From: an uncultured virus (IMG/VR IMGVR_UViG_3300032007_000064)
Taxonomy: Duplodnaviria > Heunggongvirae > Uroviricota > Caudoviricetes
DNA: 64,000 nt
Strand: one strand, 5' to 3'
Virus record (IMG/VR): IMGVR_UViG_3300032007_000064
Shown here: positions 16,005 through 41,779 of the stretch, piece by piece
How positions within the stretch are numbered: position 1 is the stretch's first letter
How the letters are laid out: every line of letters starts with the position of its first letter
Made by a program: the position numbers and the translations under genes
The notes under the pieces: model-generated
What the model was told of the DNA's origin: nothing
Databases searched by the model: none
Seen by the model: the letters and a program-made list of their open reading frames with translations, nothing else

Positions 16005-19000
16005 TATGACACCCCTTTCTTCCATCCTAATCCATATGATCCGGCAGTATTCATAATCGCTCGCGTCGTCTTCTTAGACAAACTCTGCATTAAATTATAT
16101 GTAGAATCGCCAGCTGTAATCACAAGCGAACTACCGGATATTCTTACTCGTCCTTGATTGTCTATGTATATGTATCGTGTTGCTGTACCATCGCCATTAT
16201 CACGCTGCACAGTAAACACGTTTTGATTTGCTCCAGTATCGCCAGTTTCTCCGGCGACAGCTGTAATTGTTACACCTTCATTATTTGCAATAAACGAACC
16301 TGATTCGTTATAAATTCCCAAGTCATTACCCAAGATGATGTTACCGACGATCTTCTCAGCAATGACACCATATCCTTCTCTATAATCACCTTCATACGGA
16401 TCATAATAAGTAAATGCACCGACACCAGCTTTAGCTGTAAGCCAATTATCATTTGTGAAATACAGACCTTTGTTAATGATTTTGATTTGTTCTGGAGAGT
16501 ATTCATCTGTATATTCACCCATTTGTCTCATAAGCAAACCAGTATCATCAATCAATAAGTTCTGATTATCAGCGTTTGCAATTTTTTTATTTGTCAAATA
16601 CAATCCATTTTCGATCATATTTGTAATTGCTGCATTTGCTTTTTGACCGCTGCCTGCTTGCCTTGCGGTTGTAGAATAGGATGTTGCCATTGATTTCGAC
16701 TTCGACAAAATATCCTGAATATCTGACATCGATCCCAATCCATATGTCACATCAGAAAATTCAACATCGATTGTTTGTAATTCATCATATGTAACTACGT
16801 AATCAGTCATACGAAGTTTGAATATTTTGCCATCAATTTCAATTCGCAGCCAGTTACCAACTTTAAAGCGAGAAAGGAGAGGAGAGAAGACTGAATCTTT
16901 GTTAATTGTGTAGCTGTGACCGTTGATATAAATCATTTCATCATCGTCTACAGTCGTGTCGTCTTCATTAAATAAAAGAAGGTTGTTCAAACTGCATGTG
17001 ATCGTATGCTGAAGGGTAGCAGCCTTTACAAGATCGCGCTGAGCACGCTTCAAAAACTCCTGTGCATTCTCAACAATCTTTTCATCCGACAAACCATCGG
17101 AGATATAGTTATTGTTTGAATATTCATCATCTCGTCTAAACGAACAAAACTCACCCCACAGTTCTTCTCCAAGATACGTCCTCAGATCAAGTACAGCGCC
17201 TATACGTTTTCTTTCTTCTTCAATAGCTTCGAGAGCATTATTGGTTATATTAACTTCGCCTTCACGCTCAGCTAACTCAAGCTCAATGAGAGTGCTCTTA
17301 TTATAATAAGGAAGATAAATACTCGTGTATGTATCTCCATATATAGAAGATCCCTCTGTAGCACATCCCTGTTCGATCAAAACATCAAGACAAGAACGAG
17401 CGATTGCAGAAAGCATCGCAAGATTATCCTGACTATATAAAGAAAGCGCTGATGCAAATGCTGCATCATTCAATTCAAAAAGAGCTACCGTTCCGGTAGC
17501 ATCTTTGCCGTCTTTCTTCATCGTCTTCTCTAGAAGGGTCTTCAAATAATCTATTGTCGCTCCAGTAACTTGTATTGTGATCTGTTCTGTATCCGCTGTA
17601 TCATTTGAGTCAGCATACATTGCCAGCGTAAGTACACCCGTCCATACGTGTGTGGTTGCGTTATAAGATGAAGATTTAACTTTTACGCTACATGCTGAAG
17701 AGTTAAAGAATACTTTCGAATAATTAATTACAGCAGAATTAACTGTAGACGCAGAAGCAATCTCAGCATTTTGAATACCCATCGGAGATAGAACAGAAGA
17801 TGTAAGCTTCGCGGCCTCAGCCTCAGCGGTTGTATTTTCAGAAGGCGGTGCAGTCGGAAACAATGATGTTTTCAAATATGAATTGAGCGATACTGCTTTG
17901 TAATAGAAATCAGTTAAGTTCTTAAAACCAATAATTGGATAGTCTATCGGTTCAAGATCTGTTTTGATAGGACTGTATTTCGTTATCAAAGCATTGTACG
18001 AAGTTACGATACCTTCAGGAATAGACATCGTTTCAGTATCTTCATAAGCCGCAAACTCTGCATCATATGCCTCAATTGCAGAACGCAAACTCGGTGACAT
18101 ATCATTTTTCAAATCGTCACTAAAGTACCACACATATTGCGAACGAGCAGGATTCACATTTCGGACCGCTGCCGTCATCACATCATCGCCAGCCTCAAGC
18201 CTGAAACAATTCTTTACATCATCTGCGTTCGATTCATATGAAATCTCAGACGTGAAATTATCTTTGTTAATAAAGATACCGCTGTTTTCGCCATATCCAG
18301 GTTTGATGTTAGTCGAACCGCATTTCGTACACACGCCATCAGAAAACGACCCGCGTTCACCACAATCCAAACATACGTCGTTCAAATCGTAAAGTGAGAT
18401 AGTACGATGTATCTTACCATCATCTAGCGTAGATAAACCATATATGAAGAGGCACTCAACTTCTTCGGCTATGTCATCAAACGCGCCTTTTATATCTGAA
18501 TCTTTCCAAGAGAACTGTCTTTGAAGCATCGCAATAGATCCATCAACGTGATGAATAGAATAGTGTGACGCCTTATCTTTCAACAGTCTATCCAAAAGAG
18601 ATGCTTCTGGATTGTTCTCATCGTATATCTTTGTCTGCACGTAATCAGGACGTGCAATATCATCTTCTGTATTGATTTCAATATCATGCAAAGAGAGTTG
18701 ACTTAATTCAGTTTCCTGAATGTGAAAACACTCACAGTGCTTTATAGTTTCATTGTTCTCATCAATTGTTACATGCAGTTCATACCAAGGATTAAAATCG
18801 CTTGAATCAAGAGCAGGTACATAAATCAATCTAAAATCTTTGACATCATCCCAAAGATCACAAACAGTCCCATCAGTTTCTTTGTGGACATCAAATGAAA
18901 GCTCTGGTGCTTCCATCAAATGATTGGAATTAACCAGAGCATTAACATTTTGAAGTACACCAATTTTACTTCCGCTTCTATAAGCGATGACCACATCTGG

Positions 19001-19057
19001 ATAAACTGGATTGCGATGTTCGTCAATCTCTATGATGTCGCCATATAAATTATTCAA
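16004..19057 (-). CDS. Tal-like tail tip/baseplate hub protein
   Basis: 1017 aa, directly after Dit; TTG start; NKGLYFTNDNWLTAKAGVG and GVIAEKIVG motifs typical of siphophage tail-tip proteins. Confidence 0.7.
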   Translation of the reverse strand: MNNLYGDIIEIDEHRNPVYPDVVIAYRSGSKIGVLQNVNALVNSNHLMEAPELSFDVHKETDGTVCDLWDDVKDFRLIYVPALDSSDFNPWYELHVTIDENNETIKHCECFHIQETELSQLSLHDIEINTEDDIARPDYVQTKIYDENNPEASLLDRLLKDKASHYSIHHVDGSIAMLQRQFSWKDSDIKGAFDDIAEEVECLFIYGLSTLDDGKIHRTISLYDLNDVCLDCGERGSFSDGVCTKCGSTNIKPGYGENSGIFINKDNFTSEISYESNADDVKNCFRLEAGDDVMTAAVRNVNPARSQYVWYFSDDLKNDMSPSLRSAIEAYDAEFAAYEDTETMSIPEGIVTSYNALITKYSPIKTDLEPIDYPIIGFKNLTDFYYKAVSLNSYLKTSLFPTAPPSENTTAEAEAAKLTSSVLSPMGIQNAEIASASTVNSAVINYSKVFFNSSACSVKVKSSSYNATTHVWTGVLTLAMYADSNDTADTEQITIQVTGATIDYLKTLLEKTMKKDGKDATGTVALFELNDAAFASALSLYSQDNLAMLSAIARSCLDVLIEQGCATEGSSIYGDTYTSIYLPYYNKSTLIELELAEREGEVNITNNALEAIEEERKRIGAVLDLRTYLGEELWGEFCSFRRDDEYSNNNYISDGLSDEKIVENAQEFLKRAQRDLVKAATLQHTITCSLNNLLLFNEDDTTVDDDEMIYINGHSYTINKDSVFSPLLSRFKVGNWLRIEIDGKIFKLRMTDYVVTYDELQTIDVEFSDVTYGLGSMSDIQDILSKSKSMATSYSTTARQAGSGQKANAAITNMIENGLYLTNKKIANADNQNLLIDDTGLLMRQMGEYTDEYSPEQIKIINKGLYFTNDNWLTAKAGVGAFTYYDPYEGDYREGYGVIAEKIVGNIILGNDLGIYNESGSFIANNEGVTITAVAGETGDTGANQNVFTVQRDNGDGTATRYIYIDNQGRVRISGSSLVITAGDSTYNLMQSLSKKTTRAIMNTAGSYGLGWKKGVS

Positions 19058-19896
19058 TCGAACACCGCCTTTGCTATTGGATTGTATGTGATTTCGTATT
19101 CACATGGCAGACTAAATGTTAATTCATTTTCACTTGTATCATATGAATTATGGATACGGACAAACTTATAATTGAAGCAATCGTATATTGCATGGTTTGC
19201 ATCACTTGTTGAAATTTGAAGAAAGTGATTCATATGAATCACTTCATCCTGTGTGCAATCTGTAATCAAAGTTGTCCTACCGTCAAATGAATTTGTTATT
19301 GAAAGATCACCATCTTCCAAAACTGTCAGTTTAATATCTGGATAAATAAATCCTTCCTCATCGCTTGTGTCTCTGATAAGGATTGCTTCTTCACCTGTGT
19401 TCCCCGTAGCTCCAGTTTCTCCTGTATCTCCGGTTGTACCAGAAACAGTACCGGAAAGAATAACTTTATCTCTATAACCCCACGGAGCTACAGAGTTAAA
19501 TGTCAAATTAAATCCAAGAATATCTCCGCCGAAACGGTATTCTTCTACATTAAATGTGCCTTCCCAAAACACGTTGTAATAATCTTCGTCAACAATCCTG
19601 AAAACTTCAGGCTTTGGTGATTCAAGCCAACGTTTAAGTCTAACCGTTTCATATTGCGAAACAAATGGGTCAGCTGTATCTGGGTCTTTACAAATAGAAA
19701 TTTGAATCACAAGACCAGCATCGTATGTATAATAAAGTATCGGGGTTCTACGTCCACCCCTCATAGACATGGATGTAAATGTACGCTGGGAGTCTGTTTG
19801 AACACCGCCTGCGGAAGAACCGCCGTTGAAATCACACATCACATATCCATGATCTTGCAGGGTCTCTCCCCTAAAAATAAAATCACATTTATCCAC
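19054..19896 (-). CDS. Distal tail protein (Dit)
   Basis: Position after the tape measure; DFIFRGE..LKRWL..FNSVAPWGY..IYPDIK pattern; internal GTTGDTGETGATGNTG insertion. Confidence 0.7.
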   Translation of the reverse strand: MDKCDFIFRGETLQDHGYVMCDFNGGSSAGGVQTDSQRTFTSMSMRGGRRTPILYYTYDAGLVIQISICKDPDTADPFVSQYETVRLKRWLESPKPEVFRIVDEDYYNVFWEGTFNVEEYRFGGDILGFNLTFNSVAPWGYRDKVILSGTVSGTTGDTGETGATGNTGEEAILIRDTSDEEGFIYPDIKLTVLEDGDLSITNSFDGRTTLITDCTQDEVIHMNHFLQISTSDANHAIYDCFNYKFVRIHNSYDTSENELTFSLPCEYEITYNPIAKAVFD

Positions 19897-20243: not shown

Positions 20244-22552
20244 TTACCATTTATACTTGTTCTTAGCTAAGCTGCTGCGACCGACCATTTGATCAATCGT
20301 CATAGATTGAACCATTCTCTCAAACTTTCCGTCGCTACGCATTTTATTCACAAAGTCATCATAGTTCTCAACATGGTCAATCGGTATATTGAATTGATAC
20401 GTTATATCGCCGAACAAATTGTTGCGCAAGCCACTCGGTTTAGATATACCTGTGATACCTGCGAACAAATCGATTCCATGATTTCCATTATGAATAGCTT
20501 TGTTTAAAACATCTTTTAGAATTGTGAAGTTACGTGTGTCTTCAGCGTTAAGGAACGATTCAGGCTTGCCTGGAGTACCATCAACTTGTGCTAAACCAGT
20601 ATAATCAACAATACCACCGCCCTTAAACTTGTTATATGCATACTTCGTCAAATCGGTGATACCATAGTATTTGCCGACCCACGCACCTGAGTATACATAT
20701 CCGTCTTTCCACATCTGACTAACAATACCTTGTACTTCATCGTAATTAAAACCTTTTGCCTCAAGCTTTTGTTTACGATCAGCACCAGCACCCCAGCCTT
20801 GCAAACCATTGATAATAGCAAGAGCCACACCATACTTTTCCTCAGTAGTTCTTCCGGTTTGTTTTGGAGTTTCTACTTTTTTAGGAGTTGTAGTTTTTGT
20901 TTGAGTGACAGGTTTAGCTGCTGTATTTGTTTTTGTTGTTGTTGTTGTGGATTGAATGGTAGTTTTTGCTATAGCACCACTTTTAGTTGCCATAGCAGCC
21001 ACGTTTGTTGCGATGCCAGAAAGTGTATTGTTTACAGATGTTGCTAATGTTGTATAATCTTTAGGTTGATACATGGAAATAATCTGTCCAGCCTTACCAC
21101 CATTTGACCAAATATCGCTTAATTCATCGCTAACTGTATATCCGACTTTAAATGCTTCCGAAATAATAGTATCACGAATACTACCATCGCCACCTTTAAC
21201 AACACCCATTGCAGCCGTAATAGCAGAATTTGCTAAATTAAAACCACTATCAACTTTGGTACCAATTGAGGTTGCTGTTACACCGTTTGTAGTGAGAATT
21301 GACGACATACCAGTAAGAGATGATAATGCAGAAACAGCTGATGTACCAAGTCTATTTGACATAGCATTAATGGATGAGTTCGTTGTGCTTGTATTTTGGT
21401 TAATTGCTGTAGCATTTTGAATAGCAGCAGAATTAATTGCACCACTTGTTATAATAGCATTTTGATTTAAAGCGGTAGTATTTTGAATAGATGCAGAATT
21501 AGCAGCAGAATTAATTGCACCGCTTGTAATAATAGCATTTTGATTTAAAGCAGTAGTATTTTGAGCTGCAGCAGAATTAATTGCATTACTTGTCGATAAT
21601 GTATTTTGACCAATAGCAAGTGAGTTCTGTGTTGCAGCAGAACTAATTGCACCACTTGTTGTCGCAGTGTTTTGTGCAATTGCATTGTTTACAGTATTAC
21701 TTGTCATAATTGCATTTTCTGCAACAGCAACATTACTTGCGTTTGCACAAGCATTAATGACACTTATCATATCACTAATAAGAGCATCAATATTATCAAG
21801 TCGTTGATTTAAAATAAGTTCATACTCATCATACAAATTGCTAAGCATTTCTTTTGTCTCAGAAATCTGCCGATTGTACTGAGTCTCCTGAAGTTTTTCC
21901 ATTGCATCGTCCAAACTCACTGTGAGCTTCTGTACTCTAGCGCGAGATTCTTCAGAGTTATCACCGCTGTAAGCGGAGAGTTGTTTCTGAATCTTAGAAA
22001 TGTTATCAGCCTGTTCTTTAACTTTTTTCTGATAATCGTATAGACTCTTTGCGGAATCCATCGATTCTTTATATTTATTAATAAGGTCGTTTAATGCTTG
22101 AAGTTCTTTTTGGATTCCTTCATCGATAAGGTCGACGATGGCTTTCTTTTCCTCTTCGGCATTCAATATAGATTCGCGCTGTGCTTCGATCCATTCTTGT
22201 CGCTGTTCAAGTAGAATAGTGTTATTCGGATCATTAGCAAGTTCTTTGTTGAGTTTCTTGACTTCGGCAGCATAACGATCTGCCTGGTTCATAAGAACAT
22301 TATAGTTCATACCATGCAGACCCATCGTTGCCAGACCAGTGTTCGTTAGCATACCAGAATCTTCGTACAGTTTTCCATAACTCATCAGGTCGATAAGGAA
22401 CTGTGCTTCGTCTGTAACTTGCGAAATGCGATCTTGCAGATAGTCAAAGCGATCCCAGAGTACCTCTTTAATTTTGTTACCAAGATCAATAACGGAAGTT
22501 TCTGCTTCTTGAATCGCCTCTTTGACACCATTGATCTCTTGTTGCATGTCAT
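20244..22552 (-). CDS. Tape measure protein, exon 2 (contains a Cpl-7/CW_7-like repeat)
   Basis: Splicing T(23947)+AT(22552) gives ...SQAW-Y-DMQQEING in frame; spliced product ~3060 aa. Confidence 0.85.
21330..21740. repeat. N/A/T-rich peptide repeats in TMP exon 2
   Basis: QNTTALNQNAIITSGAINSAA and degenerate copies. Confidence 0.75.
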
Positions 22553-22615
22553 CATTTGTATTTAGTTGGTTCACTACGCCAACCCGAGTTTCCTCGCTCA
22601 TAGTTTCCTATGAGA

Positions 22616-23650
22616 TTAGACTATATCTTTTACCTGTAATATTTCGTTTAGCTTATTATCGATTAATTGCGACACATTATGCCCATCCAAATATGATATT
22701 CTCAGTAAATGGATTCCGTGCGCCATGCAATAATCATTTTTTATTTTGTCATGTTTTTGTGTGTATTTTAAATGTTTTTCGTTCCATACCTTCTTAAAAT
22801 GATGCGGACCGTCAAACTCAATAATTAAATTATATTTCGGAAGATAGAAGTCAAATGGTAGTTGTCTTTTGTCTTTGCAATCTGCGAATTTCTTTTCACG
22901 AATAAAATCTATTCTAAGCGATGTAAGATAATCTGCGATAATCTTTTCGCCAGAACTTTCATACGAAGAACAAGAATGACACTGATGTTGTTTATTCCCA
23001 ACATAGTCATCAAAACTCACTATATATGTGTGTACACCATTGCATTTGCCACATTGTATTTTGAGGTTTCGCGTATGACTACTAATATAATCTTCTTTAT
23101 TAAGAAGCTTATTGTCATTAAACATTGCAACAACTGATGCAACATAGTCTGGTGTATGCTTACACTTATTTGCCCTTTCTTCATATGAACAAATTCTGCA
23201 TTTATGCCCACTTTGTAAATTATACATTTTCATAATTTGCTTGCCATGTTTAGGGCATATGAATTCAATATTCATATTGCAGTTCACATATTCACTTTCA
23301 TCGGTAATAATTGTATATCCATTCTTCTTACACGCTTCGTATAGTTTAGCAAACTGTTCATGCCTACGTTGATCCTTAGATTTTGAATATCCCTTATTTG
23401 CAGCGCATGATCTGCACAAATCTTTTTCCTCGGAATTCATACGTTTTATGTGTCGACAGTATGGTGTTTCAAACTCAATTCCACATTCGTCACAAATTAC
23501 ACGAATGTGTTTACCGTATGTTTCTGGAAGATCTGTAACATCAATTTCAAATGGATCATCCTTTTTCGTAAAAATAAAACCTTTAGATTCGTAATGACGT
23601 TTATTCCTACCGTTCCAACAGACTTGTATCTTTTGATTCGGAACTAAAAT
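22616..23650 (-). CDS. Intron-encoded homing endonuclease (zinc ribbons plus PD-(D/E)xK/DUF559-like domain)
   Basis: CxxC repeats, ESSGEKII, LPFDFYLP..IIEFDG..HF..HD.IK; the frame is open 70 codons upstream of the track ATG (23440), back to an ATT at 23650 behind an AAGGA RBS. Confidence 0.85.
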   Translation of the reverse strand: MLVPNQKIQVCWNGRNKRHYESKGFIFTKKDDPFEIDVTDLPETYGKHIRVICDECGIEFETPYCRHIKRMNSEEKDLCRSCAANKGYSKSKDQRRHEQFAKLYEACKKNGYTIITDESEYVNCNMNIEFICPKHGKQIMKMYNLQSGHKCRICSYEERANKCKHTPDYVASVVAMFNDNKLLNKEDYISSHTRNLKIQCGKCNGVHTYIVSFDDYVGNKQHQCHSCSSYESSGEKIIADYLTSLRIDFIREKKFADCKDKRQLPFDFYLPKYNLIIEFDGPHHFKKVWNEKHLKYTQKHDKIKNDYCMAHGIHLLRISYLDGHNVSQLIDNKLNEILQVKDIV

Positions 23651-23673
23651 AGTATCACGTCCTTTTTACATAA

Positions 23674-23700
23674 TAAAAAAACTAGGCTGTAAGCCTAGTT
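23674..23700 (-). terminator. Intrinsic-terminator-like hairpin inside the intron, just upstream of the endonuclease
   Basis: ACTAGGCT-TAC-AGCCTAGT followed by TTTTTT. Confidence 0.55.
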
Positions 23701-30848: not shown

Positions 30849-30878
30849 AAGAAAAGGATTGGCGAAGATGCCAATCCT
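30849..30878 (-). terminator. Intrinsic terminator upstream of the tape measure
   Basis: AGGATTGGC-ATCTTC-GCCAATCCT followed by TTTCTTT. Confidence 0.6.
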
Positions 30879-31368
30879 AACCTCCAAATCTTCCACTTGG
30901 TTGAACGCTTATAACTTGATAATCGCCACCACCGCTTACTTGAAATACGGCCAATCCAGTTTGAACAAATTGCGCCGGTAATCTAGCTGGTCGTGATTTT
31001 TTTACTTCATTTGTATTTGGATAATATACAGTTAATTGATTAGCTACGTATCCATTATTGAATAGTGCAGCCATATCGTCTACACCACCATAAATTTCAG
31101 GCATTAACGATGGTCTAAATTGTGCAGGGATGTTTACACCAATTTCATATATTCCATTTCCACATTTTGTAACACCTCCTGGAGTAGCAAATCCAACTGC
31201 AGCCATCTCATTGCCAAACAAAGCATTTGAAATTGCATCATTCACACAACTAGCCAAATGGTTTGCAGCTTGAGCAGCAATGGCATCACCATCGGCACCA
31301 ATCAAAGAAGAGCCGTCACCGATTTTTGAATGTACTTCAGCCATAATACCAGCCATATTCAAAGGCAT
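30877..31368 (-). CDS. Putative tail completion/neck protein
   Basis: Position; RPSL..YGG.DDMAALFNNGY motif. Confidence 0.5.
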   Translation of the reverse strand: MPLNMAGIMAEVHSKIGDGSSLIGADGDAIAAQAANHLASCVNDAISNALFGNEMAAVGFATPGGVTKCGNGIYEIGVNIPAQFRPSLMPEIYGGVDDMAALFNNGYVANQLTVYYPNTNEVKKSRPARLPAQFVQTGLAVFQVSGGGDYQVISVQPSGRFGG

Positions 31369-31973
31369 TACTCATCACCTTCTTTGTTCTGCGATTCTTT
31401 GTAACGCATCATAGCTCTAGTAATTTCTTCATCGCTAACAGAACCATCATTCATACCTGCAAACACCTTCACAAGGTTTGCAAGCTCATCAGGCGACATT
31501 TCGGAATACATTTGAGATACCTGATCTGTAAGCGACATAAGAGAAGAGTAGATCTCATCGATTTTTTTCTTATACTCACGATGTTCTACGCTTTCTACAG
31601 ATTTGAGCTTTGCATCAATTGCCTGCATAATGTTTTTAAATTCGTCGTGGCAAATTGCTTCGTCAATAATCATAGGTACGAGATCAGATCCATAAACAAA
31701 ATTATATTGATCTTCATAACTTTCAGGCAGTTCGATGTTAGTATATTTTTGTATAACTGCAACGCGTACAAGAAAATCTTTTAATTCAGGAAGATATGTC
31801 TCGTTGTCGTCTTGAAAACAATTGTTTACAACAAAATCAACAAATCCGATCATCTCATCTATAGAGATATGTCTGCGCACTGTTACATCAACACTGCCAA
31901 CAGTAATCACTTTTGTTTCAGGGAAATAATCATTCATATATTCACTAAAAGCTTCCGCTTTAATTCTTTCCAT
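31368..31973 (-). CDS. Putative tail assembly chaperone
   Basis: Acidic 201 aa protein with YLPEL..KYTNIELP, between the tail tube and tape measure genes. Confidence 0.55.
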   Translation of the reverse strand: MERIKAEAFSEYMNDYFPETKVITVGSVDVTVRRHISIDEMIGFVDFVVNNCFQDDNETYLPELKDFLVRVAVIQKYTNIELPESYEDQYNFVYGSDLVPMIIDEAICHDEFKNIMQAIDAKLKSVESVEHREYKKKIDEIYSSLMSLTDQVSQMYSEMSPDELANLVKVFAGMNDGSVSDEEITRAMMRYKESQNKEGDE

Positions 31974-32004: not shown

Positions 32005-32592
32005 TTATTCATACTGAAAACCTCTAATCGAGTGACCGCACCGTATATCTGGATCAGCCCATATTACATATCCAGCATTTCTAGCTTGCGAACAGAAATA
32101 CAAATCTTCAGAAAGAAATGCACCGCCGTCATATATTACATATTTAAACCACGGATATGATAATTTTCTTAATACATTTACATTGATTAATATACATCCA
32201 AAACCACAACCCTTTATTTTAAATCTTTCGTCGCTTTGTAGTTCGTCATATGTATACCTATCAACATAATCCTTCGGTCCGATTTTAAATAATTCAGTTT
32301 CTTTGCTTTGTGTGTTTTTTCGTGGATATACACCTGTGCAAATATCAACAGGGTCAGCAAGCATTTTATCCAATGTATTTGCTGGTATAATCACATCACT
32401 GTCAACCATTAACACATAATCATAATTACTATTAATGGCTTTTTTAACTATTTCATTTCGTGCTCTTGCACAGTCATACCCTTTAACAAATTCAAAATCT
32501 GCGTTTTCATATTTATGACATGCATTATAAACAGACCGGAATGTATCCGGTAATATATTTTCAAACGTTGGTATTGCAACCAGTATTTTCAT
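32005..32592 (-). CDS. GT-A fold (GT2-like) glycosyltransferase
   Basis: MKILVAIP, ARARNEIV, YVLMVDSDV (DxD), GCGFGCILI, SEDLYFC, DPDIRCGH. Confidence 0.9.
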   Translation of the reverse strand: MKILVAIPTFENILPDTFRSVYNACHKYENADFEFVKGYDCARARNEIVKKAINSNYDYVLMVDSDVIIPANTLDKMLADPVDICTGVYPRKNTQSKETELFKIGPKDYVDRYTYDELQSDERFKIKGCGFGCILINVNVLRKLSYPWFKYVIYDGGAFLSEDLYFCSQARNAGYVIWADPDIRCGHSIRGFQYE

Positions 32593-32598
32593 TTTTAA

Positions 32599-33171
32599 TT
32601 ACCCCTTTTTCTCCGTATACTTTTCACATATGCCATCATGAATCTCTGGTTGAATTCGACCCTCCATCGCTTTATTAAAAATGCTGCAATTACGTCCAGA
32701 TCTTGTACAAGAAGAGCAGTGCAGCTTAAAATCTTCATATTCATTTTCATTGGCAAAAACGCCTATATATTCTACTGGATGTATTGTCAATTCAATTCTG
32801 GGATTCTGTGTATCAAAATATATTCCTTGAGCACGTTCACACACAGTGTCATCGTCTTTCCAAACAACTTGTGTCTTTGAAATCGTGTCCAATAAAACTT
32901 TCCAATAGTTATTACAGTCCATCCGTTTTCTAGGAAAATAAAACACCCCATCAACATAGACATGTTTGCTTCCATCGAGTGGTACATCCCACCCTTGTTC
33001 GGCGACTGCATCTTTTACAATCTTAGAAAAATCTCTACAAAAAAAGACGGCGTCCGCCGTCTTATAAGGAACATCAATTGGCTTTCCATTTTTAAGTATT
33101 GCCCGATGCCCCATATAATGATTAACACTAGGAGGGAAGGGGGAAGTAATATGTAATTCGTAATTTGCCAC
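32599..33171 (-). CDS. rusA: RusA-like Holliday junction resolvase
   Basis: PPSVNHY, FYFP..RMDCNNYWKVLLD, VWKDD, NPRIELTI. Confidence 0.8.
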   Translation of the reverse strand: MANYELHITSPFPPSVNHYMGHRAILKNGKPIDVPYKTADAVFFCRDFSKIVKDAVAEQGWDVPLDGSKHVYVDGVFYFPRKRMDCNNYWKVLLDTISKTQVVWKDDDTVCERAQGIYFDTQNPRIELTIHPVEYIGVFANENEYEDFKLHCSSCTRSGRNCSIFNKAMEGRIQPEIHDGICEKYTEKKG

Positions 33172-33186: not shown

Positions 33187-33807
33187 TTAAATTTTTTCCT
33201 TCAATATAATATATCGGTACATATTACTGCCTTCTCTAAGATAATTGTAGTAATATAATGGTGTTTCCATATGTGGCAATCCTATGTACGTTGTTCTCGT
33301 ATATCCAGCTTTGTGTAGTACCATATCCATAAATGCATCATCTTCAGCAGGCTGAATATGTGGAAAGCGAAACTCGTTAATATAATCACGTTTCAGTAAA
33401 TATTGCCAGACCATCGAAAAATATCGCCACGGAAATTTATTCGTATCAAACGGAATCCGTAAAATATCTAAATTCTGACTATATGCTTTATCGAGTACAT
33501 CTTTAATCGCAGTATTCGAAAGAAGCCAGTCATCGCCATCCATAAACCAAATATATTCGCCCTGTGCTACATCCATTGCTACATTACGTGCGGGACCGCA
33601 TCCCTGTATTTCACATTGCATGATCTTACAATTAAGGCAACTTTGTCGAATTTTCTCTTCGCTATTATCTGTACAATTATTTAGAACGAAAATAATTTCC
33701 ATAGTATAATCGCCAATATCTTGTTCTTTTAAAGATTTCAGCATAGGGTCAAGAAACTGCTCAAGATTATATATAGGAATAATTACGCTAATATTTAAAC
33801 TATCCAT
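33187..33807 (-). CDS. GT2 glycosyltransferase
   Basis: ISVIIPIYNLEQFL, EIIFVLNNCTDNS, GCGPARN, GEYIWFMDGDDWL, AEDDAF, YYYNYLREGS. Confidence 0.92.
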   Translation of the reverse strand: MDSLNISVIIPIYNLEQFLDPMLKSLKEQDIGDYTMEIIFVLNNCTDNSEEKIRQSCLNCKIMQCEIQGCGPARNVAMDVAQGEYIWFMDGDDWLLSNTAIKDVLDKAYSQNLDILRIPFDTNKFPWRYFSMVWQYLLKRDYINEFRFPHIQPAEDDAFMDMVLHKAGYTRTTYIGLPHMETPLYYYNYLREGSNMYRYIILKEKI

Positions 33808-34529
33808 TCCTCGATATCTCCTTTACTCTGTTCAAACGGCATGTAAGAATTTGCACGATTTGTTGTGTCACAGAATTTACATAGTTTACATGGCTGTTTG
33901 ATAAACGCCTCAATTTCTTCAGCAGTATGATCAAATATATCTATACTTAAATCTTCAGGCGTAATTCCCCAGTCCAGTCCGAAGTGATCCCAAAAGTCAT
34001 GAATTGTACCAGCGATGCAACATGGATAAAAGCGACCATCCTGAAAGAAGTACCATTCATTCTGTTTGATGTCACAATTTGTATAAGCTTTAATTTCATC
34101 CTGACTTCCAGTAGGATCGAGCGAAATATTATATAATCGTCCTTTTTCATGCCATTCTGTATAATTAAAGCCAAGCTGTTTATCGAGATGATAATTACTC
34201 ACAGTTATATTAATATGTAACGCATTTAACTCTTCGATATGCGGAACCATTCTTTCCCACAATAATCCGTTCGTTACTAGAACAATTTTGCTATGTGGAA
34301 AATATCGTCTTGCAATACGTAAATATTCCATAAAGTTTGGATTAAGAAGCGGCTCGCCACCCATAAGACGAATGGTTTGAACTTCTTCGATTTCTGCAAG
34401 CCGTTCAAACTCCCGTTGAAATTCAGTAATGTCTTTGTGCTTCGGTTTAGCAAATACTGAGAAGTGGGAGCATCCGCGACATTTTAAATTACACGCCTCA
34501 GTAATATGTGTTTCAAAATATGGTATCAT
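33795..34529 (-). CDS. Radical SAM protein
   Basis: CNLKCRGC (CxxxCxxC), LMGGEPLLNP, VTNG, C-terminal YPCC...CKLCKFC auxiliary cysteines. Confidence 0.9.
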   Translation of the reverse strand: MIPYFETHITEACNLKCRGCSHFSVFAKPKHKDITEFQREFERLAEIEEVQTIRLMGGEPLLNPNFMEYLRIARRYFPHSKIVLVTNGLLWERMVPHIEELNALHINITVSNYHLDKQLGFNYTEWHEKGRLYNISLDPTGSQDEIKAYTNCDIKQNEWYFFQDGRFYPCCIAGTIHDFWDHFGLDWGITPEDLSIDIFDHTAEEIEAFIKQPCKLCKFCDTTNRANSYMPFEQSKGDIEEWIV

Positions 34530-34898: not shown

Positions 34899-34931
34899 GA
34901 AAAAATACGGTGGGAGAAAAACTCCCACCGT
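34899..34931 (-). terminator. Intrinsic terminator after the major tail gene
   Basis: ACGGTGGGAG-TTTTT-CTCCCACCGT followed by ATTTTTT. Confidence 0.65.
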
Positions 34932-34947: not shown

Positions 34948-35778
34948 TCAGGTTGTGCCAGTTGCGCCAGTTGTGCCAGTTGCGCCAGTATCGCCAGCAT
35001 TAGCGCCGAACACAGTGTAAGTCCACAGCAGAGCGGAGTTACCTGCTACGCAAGCGCCAGCAAGGGACTGAGCTTCGAAGTCATGCACAGTCTGGTTATC
35101 GCCCATCTCGATGGTGAATTCACCAGAGAAGTCAGCCTTCGGAACATAGAACTGAACACGATAAACGTTTGCACATTTATCTTCAGCCATAGCGTCGATG
35201 TACAGAGTGGCTTTCTTGGAATATTTATCAGAGATATTGGACAAAACGTCTGCCTGAATCCGTCTCTTATAGAAGACAGCAATTTCTGTATTATCTGCAA
35301 CACCAGAGAATGTCAGAGATTTTGTGGACGGATTGTAAGCAAATTTACCAGCAGCCGCAGCAGAATTCTGAACAAGCTCATCTCCCAGAGTGCCATCAGA
35401 ATTCTTGATATACAGAGCGTCAATTTCTGCACCTGCAGTACCAACAGCAACATACTGTGTAGTAGCAGCATTGCTCGAAACTGTCAGATAATCAGTCCAC
35501 GAAACTTCAGTAGCTTTATTCTCAAAAGCACCGCCAGTCTGAACTGCAAGCAGTCCACCAGACAGCATACCGTTCGTTCCGCTAATCGTAACAGCTTTAT
35601 TACGTTTCAGCTGAGAAAGCAGACGACCACCTTTACCGGTGATTTCCTGAACTTCCTGAGTATTGGCGATGCTAGCATTCTGCAGCTCATCGAGCACAAA
35701 AAGCAGTTCACCAGTAGCAATATCAAAACCAGTAATGGTCTCCAGACTTGTAATTGTAAGATCTGAAACAAAACTCAT
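34948..35778 (-). CDS. Major tail (tube) protein with a C-terminal GxT tag
   Basis: Strong codon bias, position, followed by a terminator; ends GDTGATGTTGATGTT. Confidence 0.8.
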   Translation of the reverse strand: MSFVSDLTITSLETITGFDIATGELLFVLDELQNASIANTQEVQEITGKGGRLLSQLKRNKAVTISGTNGMLSGGLLAVQTGGAFENKATEVSWTDYLTVSSNAATTQYVAVGTAGAEIDALYIKNSDGTLGDELVQNSAAAAGKFAYNPSTKSLTFSGVADNTEIAVFYKRRIQADVLSNISDKYSKKATLYIDAMAEDKCANVYRVQFYVPKADFSGEFTIEMGDNQTVHDFEAQSLAGACVAGNSALLWTYTVFGANAGDTGATGTTGATGTT

Positions 35779-37371: not shown

Positions 37372-38352
37372 CTGTTTTGTTTGTGAATTAAGTTGTTAAT
37401 GCTTTTTCTATGTCCCATCCCATATGAAGTCGCTTCCATAGTTTTTTATACTTCATATGAAACAGTTCTGCCCATTCAGCAATACAATGTTTCTCGCCAT
37501 TGTATTCGTACATCTGCAATGAACGTTTGTTATAATTTTGCTCTTTAATTGTAGACCATCTACAATTCTCAGGCGTATAATCGCCATTATAATTAATACG
37601 ATCTATAGTAAGCGAATCATTATATCCATTGTGAAACGCCCATTCAGCAAATTTTTCGAATGAAAGCCATTCATCGCAAACTTTTATTCCCCGAGCACCA
37701 TAATTCTTATAGCTTATATCATTTGGATTTATACACCTATTTAAAATATGTCTATGTATTCTGTACAAACGTGTATTGGTCATACCATGAGTAGTTTGAC
37801 GTGTTCTTGCTCCTTCGTGCATTTTCCTCATTCGTTCACATCCACAACAAGTAGACTTCCCACTTCTTAGACTTTGCTCCTTTACTGCACGTTCTGTACC
37901 ACAATCACATACACAATTCCAATATCTTATATGTCTATTACCCTCAATGATTTTATCTTCGGCTCTTGACATAACAGTCCACATTCCGAATCTCATTCCG
38001 CATAAATCTCGTATCATGTAAATCCTTTCTATTCATTAACAACTTATCGGGTCGCTACTCCCGTCACGGTTTTCACCCTCTATTTCTCAATAGAGCACGG
38101 ACTATATCTTCACCCTCATATGTAGGGTGTCTGCCACTTCGACTGCGCTTACAGTCTACTCCTATATCGGATAGTCTCTGAACCCTCCCTTGTGGGGATT
38201 GGCTGCTGATTGTCAAATCCATATACTTTTCAAGCATTCACGCCTATCCATATCTCATGATTACGTTGTAGCGTATATGGCTATAATGAGTTTCCAGCAA
38301 TTCGACAGATTGTTTTTCAAGCACATTTCTGCGCAAGCGGACTCAAGTTAGA
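37372..38352 (-). mobile_element. Group I intron (981 nt) with an HNH-type ORF after P9
   Basis: P1 GGAU/GUCC; AAUUGCUGGAAA, AAUCAGCAGCC, UUCAGAGACUA, AAGAUAUAGUCC; ends ...AACAG. Confidence 0.9.
37388..38017 (-). CDS. HNH-family homing endonuclease
   Basis: WNCVCDCG, STCCGC, HGMTNTRLY, YGARGIKVCDEW, LTIDRINYNGDYTPENCRW. Confidence 0.9.
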   Translation of the reverse strand: MIRDLCGMRFGMWTVMSRAEDKIIEGNRHIRYWNCVCDCGTERAVKEQSLRSGKSTCCGCERMRKMHEGARTRQTTHGMTNTRLYRIHRHILNRCINPNDISYKNYGARGIKVCDEWLSFEKFAEWAFHNGYNDSLTIDRINYNGDYTPENCRWSTIKEQNYNKRSLQMYEYNGEKHCIAEWAELFHMKYKKLWKRLHMGWDIEKALTT

Positions 38353-38769
38353 ATCCTCTAACTCCCCTGTAAGATATTTGGTCCCGTCTTCTACATAACA
38401 CCACTGCTCATGTATCATGTCATCTTCCGACACCCACTTCAGAAGATAATTACATTGATGCAATTTTGCTCGTGTGTACAGTGTTCTATTCGCATCTTTT
38501 TCTATAACAAGCCAATGATTATCCATCCATTCGACGAGACCGCCGTGTTTGATATCTTCTCCTGGCAATGATAATATTGTTTTCTCGTCCAAATTGTCCG
38601 AGTTAATTATCGCAACAGTTTGTGCGATTCCATCTATCGTTACATCTGTATAAGACATATTATCAGGGAGATACTTAAATATATTATGTTCTTCCCTACG
38701 TTTGATAGCATTTCGTTTATTTCCTCCCCGGACATCAATCCTGTTTTCATATATATTCCATGCATTCAT
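38353..38769 (-). CDS. Head-closure (stopper)-like protein, exon 1
   Basis: GGLVEW..NHWLV, CNYLLKW motifs; neck-region position. Confidence 0.75.
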
Positions 38770-40186: not shown

Positions 40187-41197
40187 TCAGGTAGTTTCAT
40201 AACGACCGATACCGGTATTAGTGTTCATAACAAAACCAATACCCATGTTCTCGGCGCAGAAATATTCCTGAGTCAGATCCATGTTTTCGGTAGCGTCACG
40301 CTGAATGATCAGCGGATTACCTTCGCGGACAACCTTGATCGGTTTGCTATCGCCAGCAATAATCGTCAGAACGTTGTCAGGATATACGAAATCGGTCGTT
40401 CCAATTTTATGACGCTGCGGAATCTTCACACACGGTGTGCCGAAGAAATATCCATAGAATCCCTGCTCATGCAGTTCTTCTTTAGCGCTATCACCCTGGA
40501 TAGACTCTTTCAGCTGACGCAGAGCTTTAGCAGTACCAGAAATAACAGCCTGTTTTCCGCCAGCAGCAGCTTCGATATGAGCGATCAGCTCAAGCAGAGC
40601 ATCCTCATTATAAGTACCAGCAGTCGGGAAATAGGTAGCACCACCAAGATCATCAGCAGTAGCAGTCGCCCAAACAGCATAGATGTCGTCCATCAGCTTG
40701 TTCTGGAAAGAACGACCAACGACATTAATCAGATGATTGAAATCAACACGTCCAGCCAGAATGCGGCTCAGCTCTTCATAAATACGAACAGCTTTCACGC
40801 TCGTCGGAATGACGATTTCTTTCTGACCAGCAATACGCTGACGACGAATACCCTGGTTACCACGAGCAACATCATCAACAACAAACAGTGTGTCATCTTC
40901 AACGATGAACAGATTCTCATCGCCTTCACCGACATTTCTATATTCAACAAGAGCGTTGAAGAAATCGGTGTTCATAATACCTTCCATAACGGTTTCTTTC
41001 AGAATCTCTTCGATAATCGCAAAGAGACCGACACATTTGCCGTCACGGATTGCTCTATAATCAAGCTTGGTGCTTCCGTTGTTAGCTTCAATCAAAGCTT
41101 CACGAAGAGTATCCTGAGACTGTTTTACAGAATACTTCTCAACGTTGCCTTTATAGCCGTCAACGCCAAGCTTAACAATATCTTTGTAATCAGCCAT
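40187..41197 (-). CDS. Major capsid protein
   Basis: 336 aa, highly biased codons, strong RBS, follows the protease and decoration genes and precedes a terminator. Confidence 0.85.
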   Translation of the reverse strand: MADYKDIVKLGVDGYKGNVEKYSVKQSQDTLREALIEANNGSTKLDYRAIRDGKCVGLFAIIEEILKETVMEGIMNTDFFNALVEYRNVGEGDENLFIVEDDTLFVVDDVARGNQGIRRQRIAGQKEIVIPTSVKAVRIYEELSRILAGRVDFNHLINVVGRSFQNKLMDDIYAVWATATADDLGGATYFPTAGTYNEDALLELIAHIEAAAGGKQAVISGTAKALRQLKESIQGDSAKEELHEQGFYGYFFGTPCVKIPQRHKIGTTDFVYPDNVLTIIAGDSKPIKVVREGNPLIIQRDATENMDLTQEYFCAENMGIGFVMNTNTGIGRYETT

Positions 41198-41224
41198 TTT
41201 TGCATTTCTCCTTTCTATATTTAA

Positions 41225-41779
41225 TTAGCCGGTCACGCCGGTATTACCCGTGTTACCGGTATCGCCAGTGTCACCGGTATCGCCAGTGACAACGTCTCCG
41301 CCGACTTCGATTACCCAGTATGTGTAACGTCCAACAATATTCTTATCGATAATTGCGCCAAATCCATCAGACGCAACTACCTTCAGCGTGGACTTACCAT
41401 TATCAATGGCAACCATCTTGCCAAGTTCGGGAGTGGTATCAAAAGCTTCCTCGGTAACGGAGAAAATGTCGTGTTCATGCAAACGATAACCACGAGCAAT
41501 CGTACCTGCCTTGTTATAGAAATTCTCAATGCCATATTTCCGTTCGTCATATACGATTTCCGGAGAAGCAATCAGAACAACATCAGCGATAGTATCGCCG
41601 GTAGCCGGAGTTTCACCGACATACACAGTGCGGGAACCCTCTTCAAGATTTCCCAGCGTGACAATATTGCCATTGTCAATATCAGTCATAGTGCCGCTCG
41701 GCTGATAACGCACAGAGACAAGTTCGCTGCGACCATCAGTGCCGAGAAGCAGATCAGTTCTAACAACTGCATGTGCCAT
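41225..41779 (-). CDS. Capsid decoration/auxiliary protein with a C-terminal GxT tag
   Basis: IDNG.IV.LG, ASPEI.YDE, FYN.AG..ARGY.L..DIFS; ends TGDTGDTGDTGNTGNTGVTG. Confidence 0.7.
   Translation of the reverse strand: MAHAVVRTDLLLGTDGRSELVSVRYQPSGTMTDIDNGNIVTLGNLEEGSRTVYVGETPATGDTIADVVLIASPEIVYDERKYGIENFYNKAGTIARGYRLHEHDIFSVTEEAFDTTPELGKMVAIDNGKSTLKVVASDGFGAIIDKNIVGRYTYWVIEVGGDVVTGDTGDTGDTGNTGNTGVTG

What the first reader, a model, noticed from the sequence alone, without database searches (positions are those of the whole stretch)
16230..41290. Candidate virion O-glycosylation system: Gly-X-Thr tags on five structural proteins plus an in-operon GT2/GT2/radical-SAM cassette
Seen: short (G-x-T)n tracts sit at the C-terminus of the capsid decoration protein (41228-41290, TGDTGDTGDTGNTGNTGVTG) and of the major tail protein (34951-34995, GDTGATGTTGATGTT). 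They are also inserted in Dit (19393-19440, GTTGDTGETGATGNTG) and Tal (16230-16253, GETGDTG), and recur many times in the big fibre (GDTGATG). Two GT-A glycosyltransferases and a radical SAM gene (32005-34529) lie between the tail-tube and chaperone genes. Established: Thr in the GxT repeats of the spore proteins BclA (B. anthracis) and BclA3 (C. difficile) is O-glycosylated, and some mycobacteriophages glycosylate capsid and tail-tube subunits with phage-encoded GTs. Inference: tracts of 2-7 triplets, some on normally hexameric tube/Dit proteins, are too short for collagen helices. They may be portable glycosylation acceptor tags that coat the virion from head to tip, with the radical SAM enzyme tailoring the sugar.
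Basis: partly seen in the sequence, partly recalled or inferred. Interest (0 to 1): 0.88.

Follow-up and report, generated by a model that had tools for sequence, protein, structure and literature searches.

The report
Phage Gly-x-Thr tags with dedicated glycosyltransferase
An uncultured gut or rumen phage carries short Gly-x-Thr tails on several outer virion proteins together with a small sugar-transferring enzyme that, across many unrelated phages and archaeal viruses, is found almost only next to such tails, so the particle is probably sugar-coated, though no sugar has been measured.

Summary
(G-x-T)5-6 tracts end the capsid cement-like protein and the YomU-type tail tube protein. One is a clean 15-residue insertion in Dit, and a 2313-aa fibre carries many more. 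The Tal tract (2 triplets) is weak.

The tag-enzyme link is supported for GTA195 only.
- 53 of 103 dereplicated GTA195-family loci carry a (GxT)≥3 tract, and in 27 the tract gene is directly adjacent.
- Controls give 1 of 116 loci.
- A blind search of IMG/VR for C-terminal (GxT)4-stop found 40 tagged ORFs, 23 of them with this enzyme nearby.
- The tagged proteins are major head proteins (five PHROG families plus small phrog_909 head proteins) and tail tube proteins (two families).
- 96 of 97 relatives of this phage without the enzyme in the fetched locus lack tags.

The rSAM-GT2 pair is a separate mobile module, found mostly in head-morphogenesis modules. It shows no tag association (0 of 19 loci) and is absent from all 155 other GTA195 loci. 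Its role in the glycan is inferred only.

Verdict: probable virion O-glycosylation via a portable tag, a new variant of a known kind, with no biochemical evidence.

The parts
41225..41779 (-). Capsid cement/decoration-like protein (184 aa) with a C-terminal (GxT)6 tag at 41228-41284
   Evidence: Tag located. PHROG 4147, unknown function. The nearest ESM-feature cluster is Phage_cement, score 0.92, which is a lead only. Homologues in 78 of 79 relatives lack a tag.
40187..41197 (-). Putative major capsid protein (336 aa), untagged
   Evidence: Assigned by position and size. PHROG 4088, 7e-80, unknown function. No GxT tract.
34948..35778 (-). Tail tube protein of the YomU_Tube family (276 aa) with a C-terminal (GxT)5 tag at 34951-34995
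   Evidence: Homologues carry PF27173. The Atlas structural match covers residues 1-265 at TM 0.92, and some relatives carry a C-terminal Big_2 domain at this end. Tag located. Only 5 of 120 homologues are tagged.
34907..34931 (-). Terminator-like hairpin after the tube gene
   Evidence: 10-bp stem followed by a T-run. An equivalent hairpin lies at the contig break between L005 and L104.
33795..34529 (-). Twitch/SPASM-type radical SAM enzyme (244 aa), whose 3' end overlaps the GT2 start by 13 nt
   Evidence: Pfam Radical_SAM 1.5e-14. Invariant Cx3Cx2C motif plus C152, C170, C171, C217 and C220. Best PDB sequence and fold match is SpeY.
33187..33807 (-). GT2 glycosyltransferase (206 aa, soluble, contains the motif DGDD)
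   Evidence: Pfam PF00535 1.4e-21. PDB sequence matches to the N-terminal GT-A domains of TarS, RmlT and TarP. No transmembrane segment. A CxxxCxxC ORF ends at the GT2 start in 12 of 14 homologous loci; the other two could not be judged.
32599..33171 (-). RusA-like resolvase (190 aa). An intervening cargo gene, not part of the proposed system
   Evidence: Occupies the same slot in 7 of 79 viral and 5 of 18 metagenome relatives that lack the GTs.
32005..32592 (-). Minimal GT-A glycosyltransferase 'GTA195' (195 aa, PHROG 1574), the enzyme linked to the GxT tracts
   Evidence: PHROG 1574 1.3e-24. Invariant D64/D66, E162-D163 and H187. AlphaFold2 pLDDT 90.9. GT-A fold, closest to STIV A197. Co-occurrence statistics.
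30877..31973 (-). Two putative tail assembly chaperone genes (201 and 163 aa) upstream of the tape measure gene
   Evidence: Assigned by position only. No family match.
19054..19896 (-). Dit (DUF6558 N- and C-terminal domains) with a (GxT)5 tract inserted in the interdomain linker at 19393-19440
   Evidence: Pfam domains at residues 1-134 and 169-271. The tract is a 15-residue insertion relative to the 60% identical Dit of G002.
16004..19057 (-). Tal-like tail protein with GETGDTG at 16232-16252 (weak)
   Evidence: Tract located. It is a 5-residue insertion relative to the G002 protein. Two triplets alone are not beyond chance.
9084..16025 (-). 2313-aa tail fibre with interrupted collagen-like G-x-T runs
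   Evidence: Pfam Collagen 27.4 bits against a cut-off of 27.2. PHROG tail fibre families. 14 G-X-Y runs of 3-10 triplets.

Best explanation
The window is the late structural operon of a large SPbeta-like siphophage from a gut or rumen community.

Proposed mechanism: the 195-aa soluble GT-A enzyme (GTA195) takes a host nucleotide sugar. In the cytoplasm it O-glycosylates threonines in exposed Gly-x-Thr tracts. The tracts act as a portable acceptor tag. They are appended to the C-termini of the capsid cement protein and the tail tube protein, inserted into a Dit linker, and repeated along the fibre. The result would be a virion coated with glycan from head to tail tip.

The rSAM-GT2 pair is a second, independently mobile module. 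In this phage it most likely extends the glycan (GT2) and oxidises or tailors it (SpeY-like twitch dehydrogenase).

Shown:
- the tracts and the enzyme folds and motifs;
- the genomic coupling of GTA195 with GxT tracts.

Inferred:
- that Thr is the acceptor, and the identity of the sugar;
- the order of steps and the participation of rSAM and GT2;
- the biological benefit (protease, antibody or adsorption shielding, or adhesion).
For: Forward association:
- A (GxT)≥3 tract lies within 10 kb in 34 of 82 viral GTA195-family loci and in 50 of 73 species-representative genome loci.
- After dereplication at 90% enzyme identity there are 103 clusters. Of these, 53 have a tract, 27 have the tract gene at most 300 bp away on the same strand, and 25 have a C-terminal tag on a protein under 500 aa.

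Controls:
- 1 of 79 viral loci of the tail-tube family.
- 0 of 18 metagenome loci.
- 0 of 19 rSAM/GT2 loci.

Reverse association:
- A blind IMG/VR search for (GxT)4-stop gave 68 loci. In 40 the tag is in frame at an ORF end, and 23 of those 40 have a GTA195 HMM hit. These form 17 clusters at 90% identity.
- Only 336 confirmed family members exist among 2.9 million contigs.

Convergence:
- Tagged proteins are major head proteins of PHROGs 422, 10, 212, 29 and 544, small head proteins (phrog_909) and tail tube proteins of PHROGs 117 and 885.
- Hosts range from Clostridia to Methanobrevibacter. They include the public Methanobacteriales virus vir323.

Within the family:
- The tags are insertions or appendages absent from relatives.
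- A relative with GTA195 but without rSAM and GT2 (L104/G002, probably the same phage as L005) has a tagged cement protein only.

Enzyme:
- The DxD, ED and His motifs are invariant.
- A197 is suspected of glycosylating the STIV capsid protein (PMC10551542, passages).

Precedent:
- Glycans sit at the C-termini of mycobacteriophage capsid and tail tube subunits. I saw this only as cited in PMC12619734.

Other support:
- The enzymes have no transmembrane segments, and the genes are tightly packed in the late operon.
- rSAM: SpeY is the top match by sequence (1.4e-8) and by fold (E 6e-9, TMq 0.65; the next hits are at about 1e-5 and TMq below 0.5).
Against: - No glycan, mass shift or enzyme activity has been observed anywhere in this family.
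- About half of the GTA195 loci show no (GxT)≥3 tract within 10 kb: 50 of 103 clusters overall, and 24 of 63 among representatives of at least 12 kb.
- More distant PHROG 1574 members (27-30% identical: L089, L100, L101) sit beside untagged head and tail proteins. Cyanophage homologues (about 30% identical) are not next to GxT genes in the one case examined.
- 17 of the 40 blind-search tags have no GTA195 nearby. These are mostly long collagen-like fibres, all-repeat fragments or odd repeats such as GRT and GYT. One phrog_909 case lies on a truncated contig.
- rSAM and GT2 homologues are absent from all 155 other GTA195 loci. One rSAM-GT2 pair lies in a replication module (L096).
- The best sequence matches of the GT2 are wall-teichoic-acid transferases.
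- Long proteins carrying a GTA195-like domain contain other GT and methyltransferase domains but no GxT tract (0 of 48). The domain could therefore be a chain extender rather than the initiating enzyme.
- The control loci are mostly from one phage family and do not reach the fibre genes.
Confidence: 0.62

Rival explanations
1. The GxT tracts are structural. They would be mini collagen triple helices or flexible spacers that trimerise or project domains. GTA195 simply travels with collagen-like fibre genes as part of a host-range cassette and modifies something else, or only the long fibres.
For: - The fibre reaches the Pfam Collagen cut-off (27.4 against 27.2 bits).
- Many GTA195 neighbours are long collagen-like fibres.
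- Cement proteins and Tal are typically trimers (general knowledge), so six triplets could pair.
- Some GTA195 phages have untagged capsid proteins but collagen-like fibres (L109 and L110).
Against: - Tags of only 3-5 triplets sit on major head and tail tube proteins, which form hexamers and pentamers. This occurs in at least seven PHROG families.
- Tags this short, without proline or hydroxyproline, are unlikely to form stable triple helices (inference).
- In the blind search, short tags on non-fibre proteins almost always had the enzyme nearby, whereas long collagen-like proteins often did not.
Confidence: 0.15
2. The glycosyltransferases, especially the GT2 with its rSAM partner, modify a host surface polymer such as wall teichoic acid or another glycopolymer. 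This would happen during infection, for superinfection exclusion or to prevent released virions from re-adsorbing to debris. The virion would not be the target.
For: - The best PDB sequence matches of GT2_206 are TarS, RmlT and TarP. PHROG labels its relatives 'GtrB-like O-antigen conversion'.
- The rSAM-GT2 pair shows no tag association (0 of 19 loci; 0 of 155).
- The slot between the tube and chaperone genes is a general cargo hot-spot that also holds RusA.
Against: - The genes lie inside late structural operons, in head-morphogenesis modules in L084, L089 and L093. They are not near the integrase or a lysogeny module.
- There are no transmembrane segments, and only the roughly 200-aa catalytic core is present, without the acceptor-binding C-terminal domains of TarS and TarP.
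- For GTA195 the coupling to tags is strong.
Confidence: 0.13
3. The enzymes glycosylate phage DNA (base hypermodification) to evade restriction.
For: - Phage GTs often modify DNA (search listing and abstracts of bioRxiv 10.1101/2023.12.21.572611 and PMC13326640).
- One rSAM-GT2 pair lies between topoisomerase and recombination genes (L096).
Against: - No hydroxymethylase, TET-like or DNA base-modifying gene was found among the window ORFs scanned.
- The location in the structural operon, and the tight and specific coupling of GTA195 to a peptide motif, are not expected for a DNA enzyme.
Confidence: 0.04

Closest known systems
SgtA-BclA3 of Clostridioides difficile (and BclA of the Bacillus exosporium)
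   Same: A GT-A-fold enzyme is encoded next to a protein with Gly-x-Thr collagen-like repeats. [quoted passage not shown]
   Different: SgtA has a TPR domain and is 358 aa long. GTA195 is a bare 195-aa catalytic core. The substrates here are virion proteins, many carrying only a 3-7 triplet tag rather than a long collagen-like region. No sequence comparison with SgtA was possible because its sequence was not at hand.
Mycobacteriophage virion glycosylation (Che8 and cluster F1; Freeman et al. 2023)
   Same: Phage-encoded glycosyltransferases. Glycans at the C-termini of the capsid and tail tube subunits (seen only as cited in PMC12619734 and PMC11256854).
   Different: The original paper could not be read, so the acceptor sequence and enzyme families there are unknown to me. 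In Maravista the GT genes lie near the 3' end of the genome. Here and in related cases they lie inside the head or tail operon. Hosts here are anaerobic gut Firmicutes and methanogens, and the acceptor is a Gly-x-Thr repeat.
STIV A197, a minimal viral GT-A glycosyltransferase
   Different: Sequence identity is 18-21%. The virus is a crenarchaeal PRD1-type virus. No Gly-x-Thr acceptor is known for it, and its donor and acceptor remain undetermined.
Collagen glycosyltransferases (human COLGALT1/LH3, mimivirus R699/L230)
   Different: They glycosylate hydroxylysine, not threonine, and no hydroxylase is present here. The matched LH3 segment (residues 296-519) may be its accessory, non-catalytic domain. 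That domain assignment is recalled, not tested.
SpeY and BtrN twitch radical SAM dehydrogenases
   Same: Best sequence match (7wzv, 1.4e-8) and best fold match (E 6e-9, TMq 0.65). Cx3Cx2C motif plus C-terminal auxiliary-cluster cysteines. Both known enzymes oxidise a hydroxyl group on a sugar or aminocyclitol; the chemistry is recalled from memory.
   Different: Those are antibiotic-pathway enzymes. This one is 244 aa and phage-encoded, and it is translationally coupled to a GT2. The model has only pLDDT 74.9, and the substrate is unknown.

Membership tests
GT-A fold, metal-dependent glycosyltransferase (GTA195) | Single Rossmann-like α/β/α GT-A fold | tested here: met
GT-A fold, metal-dependent glycosyltransferase (GTA195) | DxD motif, downstream acidic catalytic pair and C-terminal His | tested here: met
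   D64 and D66 (DSD), E162-D163 and H187 are invariant in 28 sequences. The assignment of roles to these residues is by analogy.
GT-A fold, metal-dependent glycosyltransferase (GTA195) | Reaches a curated Pfam family cut-off (GT2 PF00535 or Anp1 PF03452) | tested here: not met
   21.6 bits against 23.3, and 25.2 bits against 28.8. Some homologues carry these families in precomputed annotation.
SgtA-type protein O-GlcNAc transferase of collagen-like repeats | Gene adjacent to a Gly-x-Thr repeat protein | tested here: met
   27 of 103 clusters have the tract gene directly adjacent, and 53 of 103 have one within 10 kb.
SgtA-type protein O-GlcNAc transferase of collagen-like repeats | C-terminal TPR domain | tested here: not met
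   The protein is 195 aa and is entirely GT-A core.
SgtA-type protein O-GlcNAc transferase of collagen-like repeats | Transfers GlcNAc from UDP-GlcNAc to Thr | not testable with these tools
   Needs an enzyme assay.
Mycobacteriophage-type virion glycosylation | Acceptor at the C-terminus of capsid-associated and tail tube subunits | tested here: met
   Tags end the cement-like and tube proteins. In other GTA195 phages they end major head and tube proteins.
Mycobacteriophage-type virion glycosylation | Homology of the glycosyltransferases to those of Che8 | not tested
   Sequences were not at hand and the paper is not held.
Mycobacteriophage-type virion glycosylation | Glycan detected on virions | not testable with these tools
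   No isolate is available and no proteomics were done.
Collagen triple helix (Pfam PF01391) | Long uninterrupted Gly-X-Y run that reaches the family score | tested here: not met
   For the tags on the cement, tube, Dit and Tal proteins there is no Pfam hit, and the tracts are 2-6 triplets long. The fibre alone just reaches the cut-off (27.4 against 27.2 bits).
Twitch/SPASM radical SAM dehydrogenase (SpeY/BtrN-like) | Cx3Cx2C motif plus auxiliary-cluster cysteines | tested here: met
   C13, C17 and C20, and C152, C170, C171, C217 and C220, are invariant in 9 sequences. Paralogous partners of GT2 homologues hit Pfam SPASM. The window protein itself has no Pfam SPASM hit.
Twitch/SPASM radical SAM dehydrogenase (SpeY/BtrN-like) | Closest fold is SpeY or BtrN | tested here: met
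   SpeY E 6e-9, TMq 0.61-0.67. BtrN 8e-6. EpeE, viperin and MoaA match only the N-terminal half. Model pLDDT 74.9.
Twitch/SPASM radical SAM dehydrogenase (SpeY/BtrN-like) | Oxidises a carbohydrate hydroxyl group | not testable with these tools
   Needs anaerobic reconstitution.
TarS/TarP wall-teichoic-acid glycosyltransferases (GT2_206) | N-terminal GT-A catalytic domain | tested here: met
   phmmer 1.2e-14 to TarS residues 2-117.
TarS/TarP wall-teichoic-acid glycosyltransferases (GT2_206) | C-terminal acceptor-binding or trimerisation domains | tested here: not met
   The protein is only 206 aa, and the matches cover only about residues 5-117.

The most novel reading that the evidence does not exclude
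Gly-x-Thr would be a portable glycosylation 'sequon' for viruses of anaerobes. A 9-20-residue tag could be appended to any exposed virion protein: major head, cement, tube, Dit, connector or fibre. A dedicated minimal GT-A enzyme family (PHROG 1574) would read it, and the system would be shared by bacterial and archaeal (Methanobrevibacter) viruses. In this phage a mobile radical SAM dehydrogenase plus GT2 module would elaborate the sugar into an unusual keto or modified glycan, giving the whole particle a programmable glycocalyx.
Probability: 0.4. Interest if true: 0.85.

Novelty: new variant of a known kind. Interest (0 to 1): 0.72.

Why it matters
Virion glycosylation in phages has been shown only for mycobacteriophages. 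My searches found no report of it for phages of gut or rumen anaerobes or for archaeal tailed viruses. They also found no report of a defined peptide tag.

If the tag-enzyme pair works as proposed, several things follow.
- A widespread family of 'unknown function' genes would be explained. PHROG 1574 has 261 representative clusters at E ≤ 1e-30 and 5311 at E ≤ 1e-10.
- Glycosylated virion proteins could be predicted from sequence alone.
- A short genetically encoded tag and a 195-aa enzyme would become available for site-directed O-glycosylation of phage particles or other proteins.
- It would bear on phage stability, antibody recognition and adhesion in gut ecosystems.

The pairing of a radical SAM enzyme with a GT2 inside head-assembly modules is unexplained and may hide new sugar chemistry.

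Tried and rejected
- No match for the region or the tube protein among 50,697 public phage records. The window's own assembly is not held.
- The metagenome scan for close tube relatives found 18 loci, none tagged and none with the GTs. It added controls only.
- I looked for proteins that fuse a GTA195-like domain to a GxT tract, which would tie enzyme and substrate together. None was found among 48 long proteins out of the 150 best representatives. These proteins instead combine GT1, GT2, GT8 and methyltransferase domains (20 of the 48 scanned). Their GT2 domains are only generically similar to GT2_206 (22-31% identity).
- L348 first looked like a tagged tube protein without the enzyme. It shares no homology with window proteins and is a collagen-like fibre piece.
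- Cyanophage homologues (about 30% identical) are not beside GxT genes in S-SM2, the one case examined. I did not pursue them.
- The Freeman et al. 2023 paper could not be read. A search for the PDB code 7WZV in papers found nothing.
- Complex prediction was not used, because enzyme-substrate pairs are poor targets for it.
- No sequencing-run or expression analysis was attempted.

Full report
**What is in the window.** All genes between 9 kb and 56 kb lie on the minus strand and form a late operon. The order is:
- portal;
- a 515-aa protein;
- a 184-aa protein;
- a 336-aa putative capsid protein, followed by several small proteins;
- a 276-aa tube protein;
- a 91-aa zinc-ribbon protein;
- four cargo genes;
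- two putative chaperones;
- a 2304-aa tape measure protein;
- an HNH endonuclease;
- a 785-aa protein with a CW_7 repeat;
- Dit (DUF6558);
- a 1017-aa Tal-like protein;
- a 2313-aa fibre.

A YonO-like RdRP-fold polymerase and the YomU_Tube family of the tube protein mark this as an SPbeta-like siphophage. A near-identical 39-kb IMG/VR record exists. No public phage record matches.

**The observation.**
- They are far beyond chance for the three long non-fibre tracts and for the fibre. Eleven tracts of at least 3 triplets were seen, against 0.008 expected.
- The two-triplet Tal tract is not significant on its own.
- Codon choice inside the tracts is mixed, so the repeats are kept at the protein level.
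- The cassette holds four genes. The third is a RusA-like resolvase, not a glycosyltransferase.
- None of the three enzymes has a transmembrane segment. Intergenic gaps are at most 74 nt, and the rSAM and GT2 genes overlap by 13 nt.

**The tags are add-ons.**
- Of 120 tube homologues (2759 in the family), only 5 end in GxT repeats. The rest stop at a conserved ...FGANAEDAA.
- Some family members carry an Ig-like Big_2 domain at this same end. This argues that the C-terminus is exposed (inference).
- Against a 60% identical Dit and a 68% identical Tal from a relative (G002), the tracts are clean 15- and 5-residue insertions. The Dit insertion falls between the two Pfam domains.
- Among 79 related viral loci, only L005 has a tag of at least 3 triplets, and it is on the cement-like protein.

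**Test within the family.**
- None of the 79 viral and 18 metagenome relatives has the rSAM, the GT2 or GTA195 within 10 kb of the tube gene.
- Only one of them, L005, has a tag.
- L005 ends in half of a terminator hairpin. L104, from the same metagenome, starts with the other half.
- L104 continues with p91, RusA, GTA195 and the chaperones, and has no rSAM or GT2.
- If these are one phage (probable, not proven), it has GTA195 alone, a tagged cement protein, and untagged tube, Dit and Tal proteins.

**Test across families: from enzyme to tag.** GTA195 belongs to PHROG 1574. An alignment of 28 homologues shows invariant DSD, ED and His motifs.

| Set of loci | Loci with a (GxT)≥3 tract |
|---|---|
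| Viral GTA195-family loci | 34 of 82 |
| Genome-collection GTA195-family loci | 50 of 73 |
| Control: tube-family viral loci | 1 of 79 |
| Control: tube-family metagenome loci | 0 of 18 |
| Control: rSAM/GT2 loci | 0 of 19 |

After dereplication at 90% enzyme identity there are 103 clusters:
- 53 have a tract;
- in 27 the tract gene is at most 300 bp away on the same strand;
- 25 have a C-terminal tag on a protein under 500 aa.

At 70% identity the figures are 27, 17 and 9 of 53 clusters.

I scanned 29 tract-bearing proteins, 17 of them with short tags. Among those 17:
- nine are major head proteins from five PHROG families;
- four are tube proteins from two families;
- two are neck proteins.

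The other 12 are collagen-like fibres. The genome hits are rumen and gut MAGs, many labelled Methanobrevibacter. One Methanobrevibacter locus has the enzyme followed by Pfam Collagen proteins with a phage tail-tip domain. The public Methanobacteriales virus vir323 shows the same arrangement.

**Test across families: from tag to enzyme.** I made a blind pattern search of IMG/VR for four GxT triplets followed by a stop.
- It gave 68 loci. In 40, the tag ends an ORF of at least 60 aa.
- 23 of those 40 have a GTA195-family HMM hit in the locus, usually in the next gene. These form 17 clusters at 90% identity and 6 at 70%.
- One of the 23 is the window's own near-identical record.
- The family has only 336 confirmed members in 2.9 million contigs, so this is a very large enrichment.
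- I scanned 16 of the tagged ORFs. Six are small head proteins (phrog_909), one is a major head protein and two are tube proteins. Three are collagen-like fibres and four have no family.
- The 17 tags without the enzyme are mostly long collagen-like proteins, all-repeat fragments or odd repeats (GRT, GYT). One phrog_909 case lies on a contig that ends 740 bp downstream.

**The enzymes.**
- *GTA195.* The model is confident (pLDDT 90.9). Two independent aligners put STIV A197 first. GT-A(-like) domains of the collagen glycosylation enzymes follow (mimivirus R699, the LH3 chain of the LH3/COLGALT1 complex, and COLGALT1 itself in Foldseek), with yeast Mnn9 among them. Generic GT2 enzymes come after. 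A197 is an essential minimal GT-A enzyme of a virus whose capsid protein is glycosylated (PMC10551542, passages).
- *GT2_206.* It is an ordinary GT2 catalytic core.
- *rSAM.* It has the canonical cluster motif and five further invariant cysteines. It is closest to the twitch dehydrogenase SpeY by sequence and by fold. The model is of moderate quality (pLDDT 74.9).

**The rSAM-GT2 pair is a separate module.**
- In 12 of 14 loci with a GT2_206 homologue, a CxxxCxxC ORF ends at the GT2 start. The other two loci could not be judged.
- Five of these upstream ORFs were scanned and hit Pfam SPASM.
- The pair lies between terminase and portal (L084), or between minor head protein and scaffold/capsid genes (L089, L093). 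In one case it lies in a replication module (L096).
- L089 has three GTs plus the rSAM around its capsid gene. L100 and L101 have an rSAM and a distant PHROG 1574 enzyme flanking the protease and capsid genes.
- None of these loci has GxT tags.
- None of the 155 other GTA195 loci has this rSAM or GT2.
- The late-operon location therefore suggests a virion-directed role, but nothing ties the pair to the tags except co-residence in this phage.

**Comparison with what is known.**
- SgtA of C. difficile is a GT-A enzyme encoded next to BclA3. It puts β-O-GlcNAc on Thr in short synthetic peptides taken from the collagen-repeat region (PMC7157674, abstract and passages).
- Mycobacteriophages carry glycans at the C-termini of capsid and tube subunits. 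I saw this only in citing papers, because the original is not held.
- The present case combines both ideas: a Gly-x-Thr acceptor, used as a short tag on virion subunits, with a different and much smaller enzyme family.
- Earlier AI notes of this scan describe phage collagen-like fibres next to other glycosyltransferase families, and one Gly-x-Thr motif case. They are leads only and were not re-tested. Long multi-domain proteins that carry a GTA195-like domain together with GT1, GT2, GT8 and methyltransferase domains resemble the 'polyprotein' enzymes in those notes.

**Verdict.**
- The tags are real and are lineage-specific insertions.
- They are strongly and reciprocally coupled to one enzyme family across unrelated virion protein families and across host domains.
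- The most likely mechanism is O-glycosylation of tag threonines by GTA195 (confidence about 0.6). Elaboration of the glycan by the rSAM-GT2 module is plausible but unsupported by comparison (about 0.35).
- No chemistry has been observed.
- Weak points:
  - about half of the enzyme loci show no tract within 10 kb;
  - the controls are dominated by one phage family;
  - the enzyme could be a chain extender rather than the initiating enzyme.

Noticed in passing
window 38078-38362 (-), with HNH ORF 37388-38017: Group I intron (Rfam RF00028, 99.9 bits, full length) next to an HNH homing endonuclease. It overlaps the 3' end of ORF 38317-38769. The 150-aa and 182-aa structural ORFs may therefore be exons of one spliced gene.
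   Followed up: no
window 20244-30835: The tape measure gene (2304 aa) is followed by a 480-nt gap, an HNH endonuclease ORF (22616-23440) and a 785-aa ORF. The N-terminal part of that ORF matches the C-terminal part of a tape-measure PHROG, and it carries a CW_7 cell-wall-binding repeat. A relative has the same arrangement (L104). This may be a tape measure gene split by a homing element. No Rfam intron was found there.
   Followed up: partly
window 32599-33171: A RusA-like resolvase with a Cys-rich C-terminal tail lies inside the tail operon. It occupies the same slot between tube and chaperone genes in 7 of 79 viral and 5 of 18 metagenome relatives. That gap is therefore a cargo hot-spot.
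   Followed up: partly
loci L083, L087, L088, L091, L092, L098, L099, L102: IMG/VR contigs repeatedly end within a few hundred bases after the rSAM or GT2 homologue. Most contigs holding GT2_206 homologues are short. This suggests strain-level cassette variability that breaks assemblies.
   Followed up: no
L089 8251-12835; L093 7515-11331: Unrelated phages place GT2 (about 330 aa), a SPASM rSAM and GT2 (about 210 aa) between the minor head protein and the scaffold and major head genes. L089 adds a PHROG 1574 enzyme after the head gene. Their head and tube proteins end in short Ser/Thr tails (…KKASSTT, …PTVSTT) rather than GxT tags.
   Followed up: partly
proteins P0363-P0509: 48 of the 150 best representatives of the GTA195 family are long proteins of 288-2239 aa. 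In the 20 I scanned, the domain is variously combined with GT1, GT2, GT8, FkbM and class-I methyltransferase domains; one of the 20 had no Pfam hit.
   Followed up: partly
L198 9722-14474 (Methanobrevibacter MAG contig): A 288-aa form of the enzyme is followed by Pfam Collagen proteins, one of them with a phage tail-tip domain. The cluster lies in a small island flanked by cellular genes, an Abi-like gene and an integrase.
   Followed up: partly
window 51924-54680 and 61354-61448: A YonO-like RdRP-fold RNA polymerase (Pfam PF05183, 1.7e-12). ARAGORN also reports an odd tRNA-like gene with a four-base anticodon loop call.
   Followed up: no
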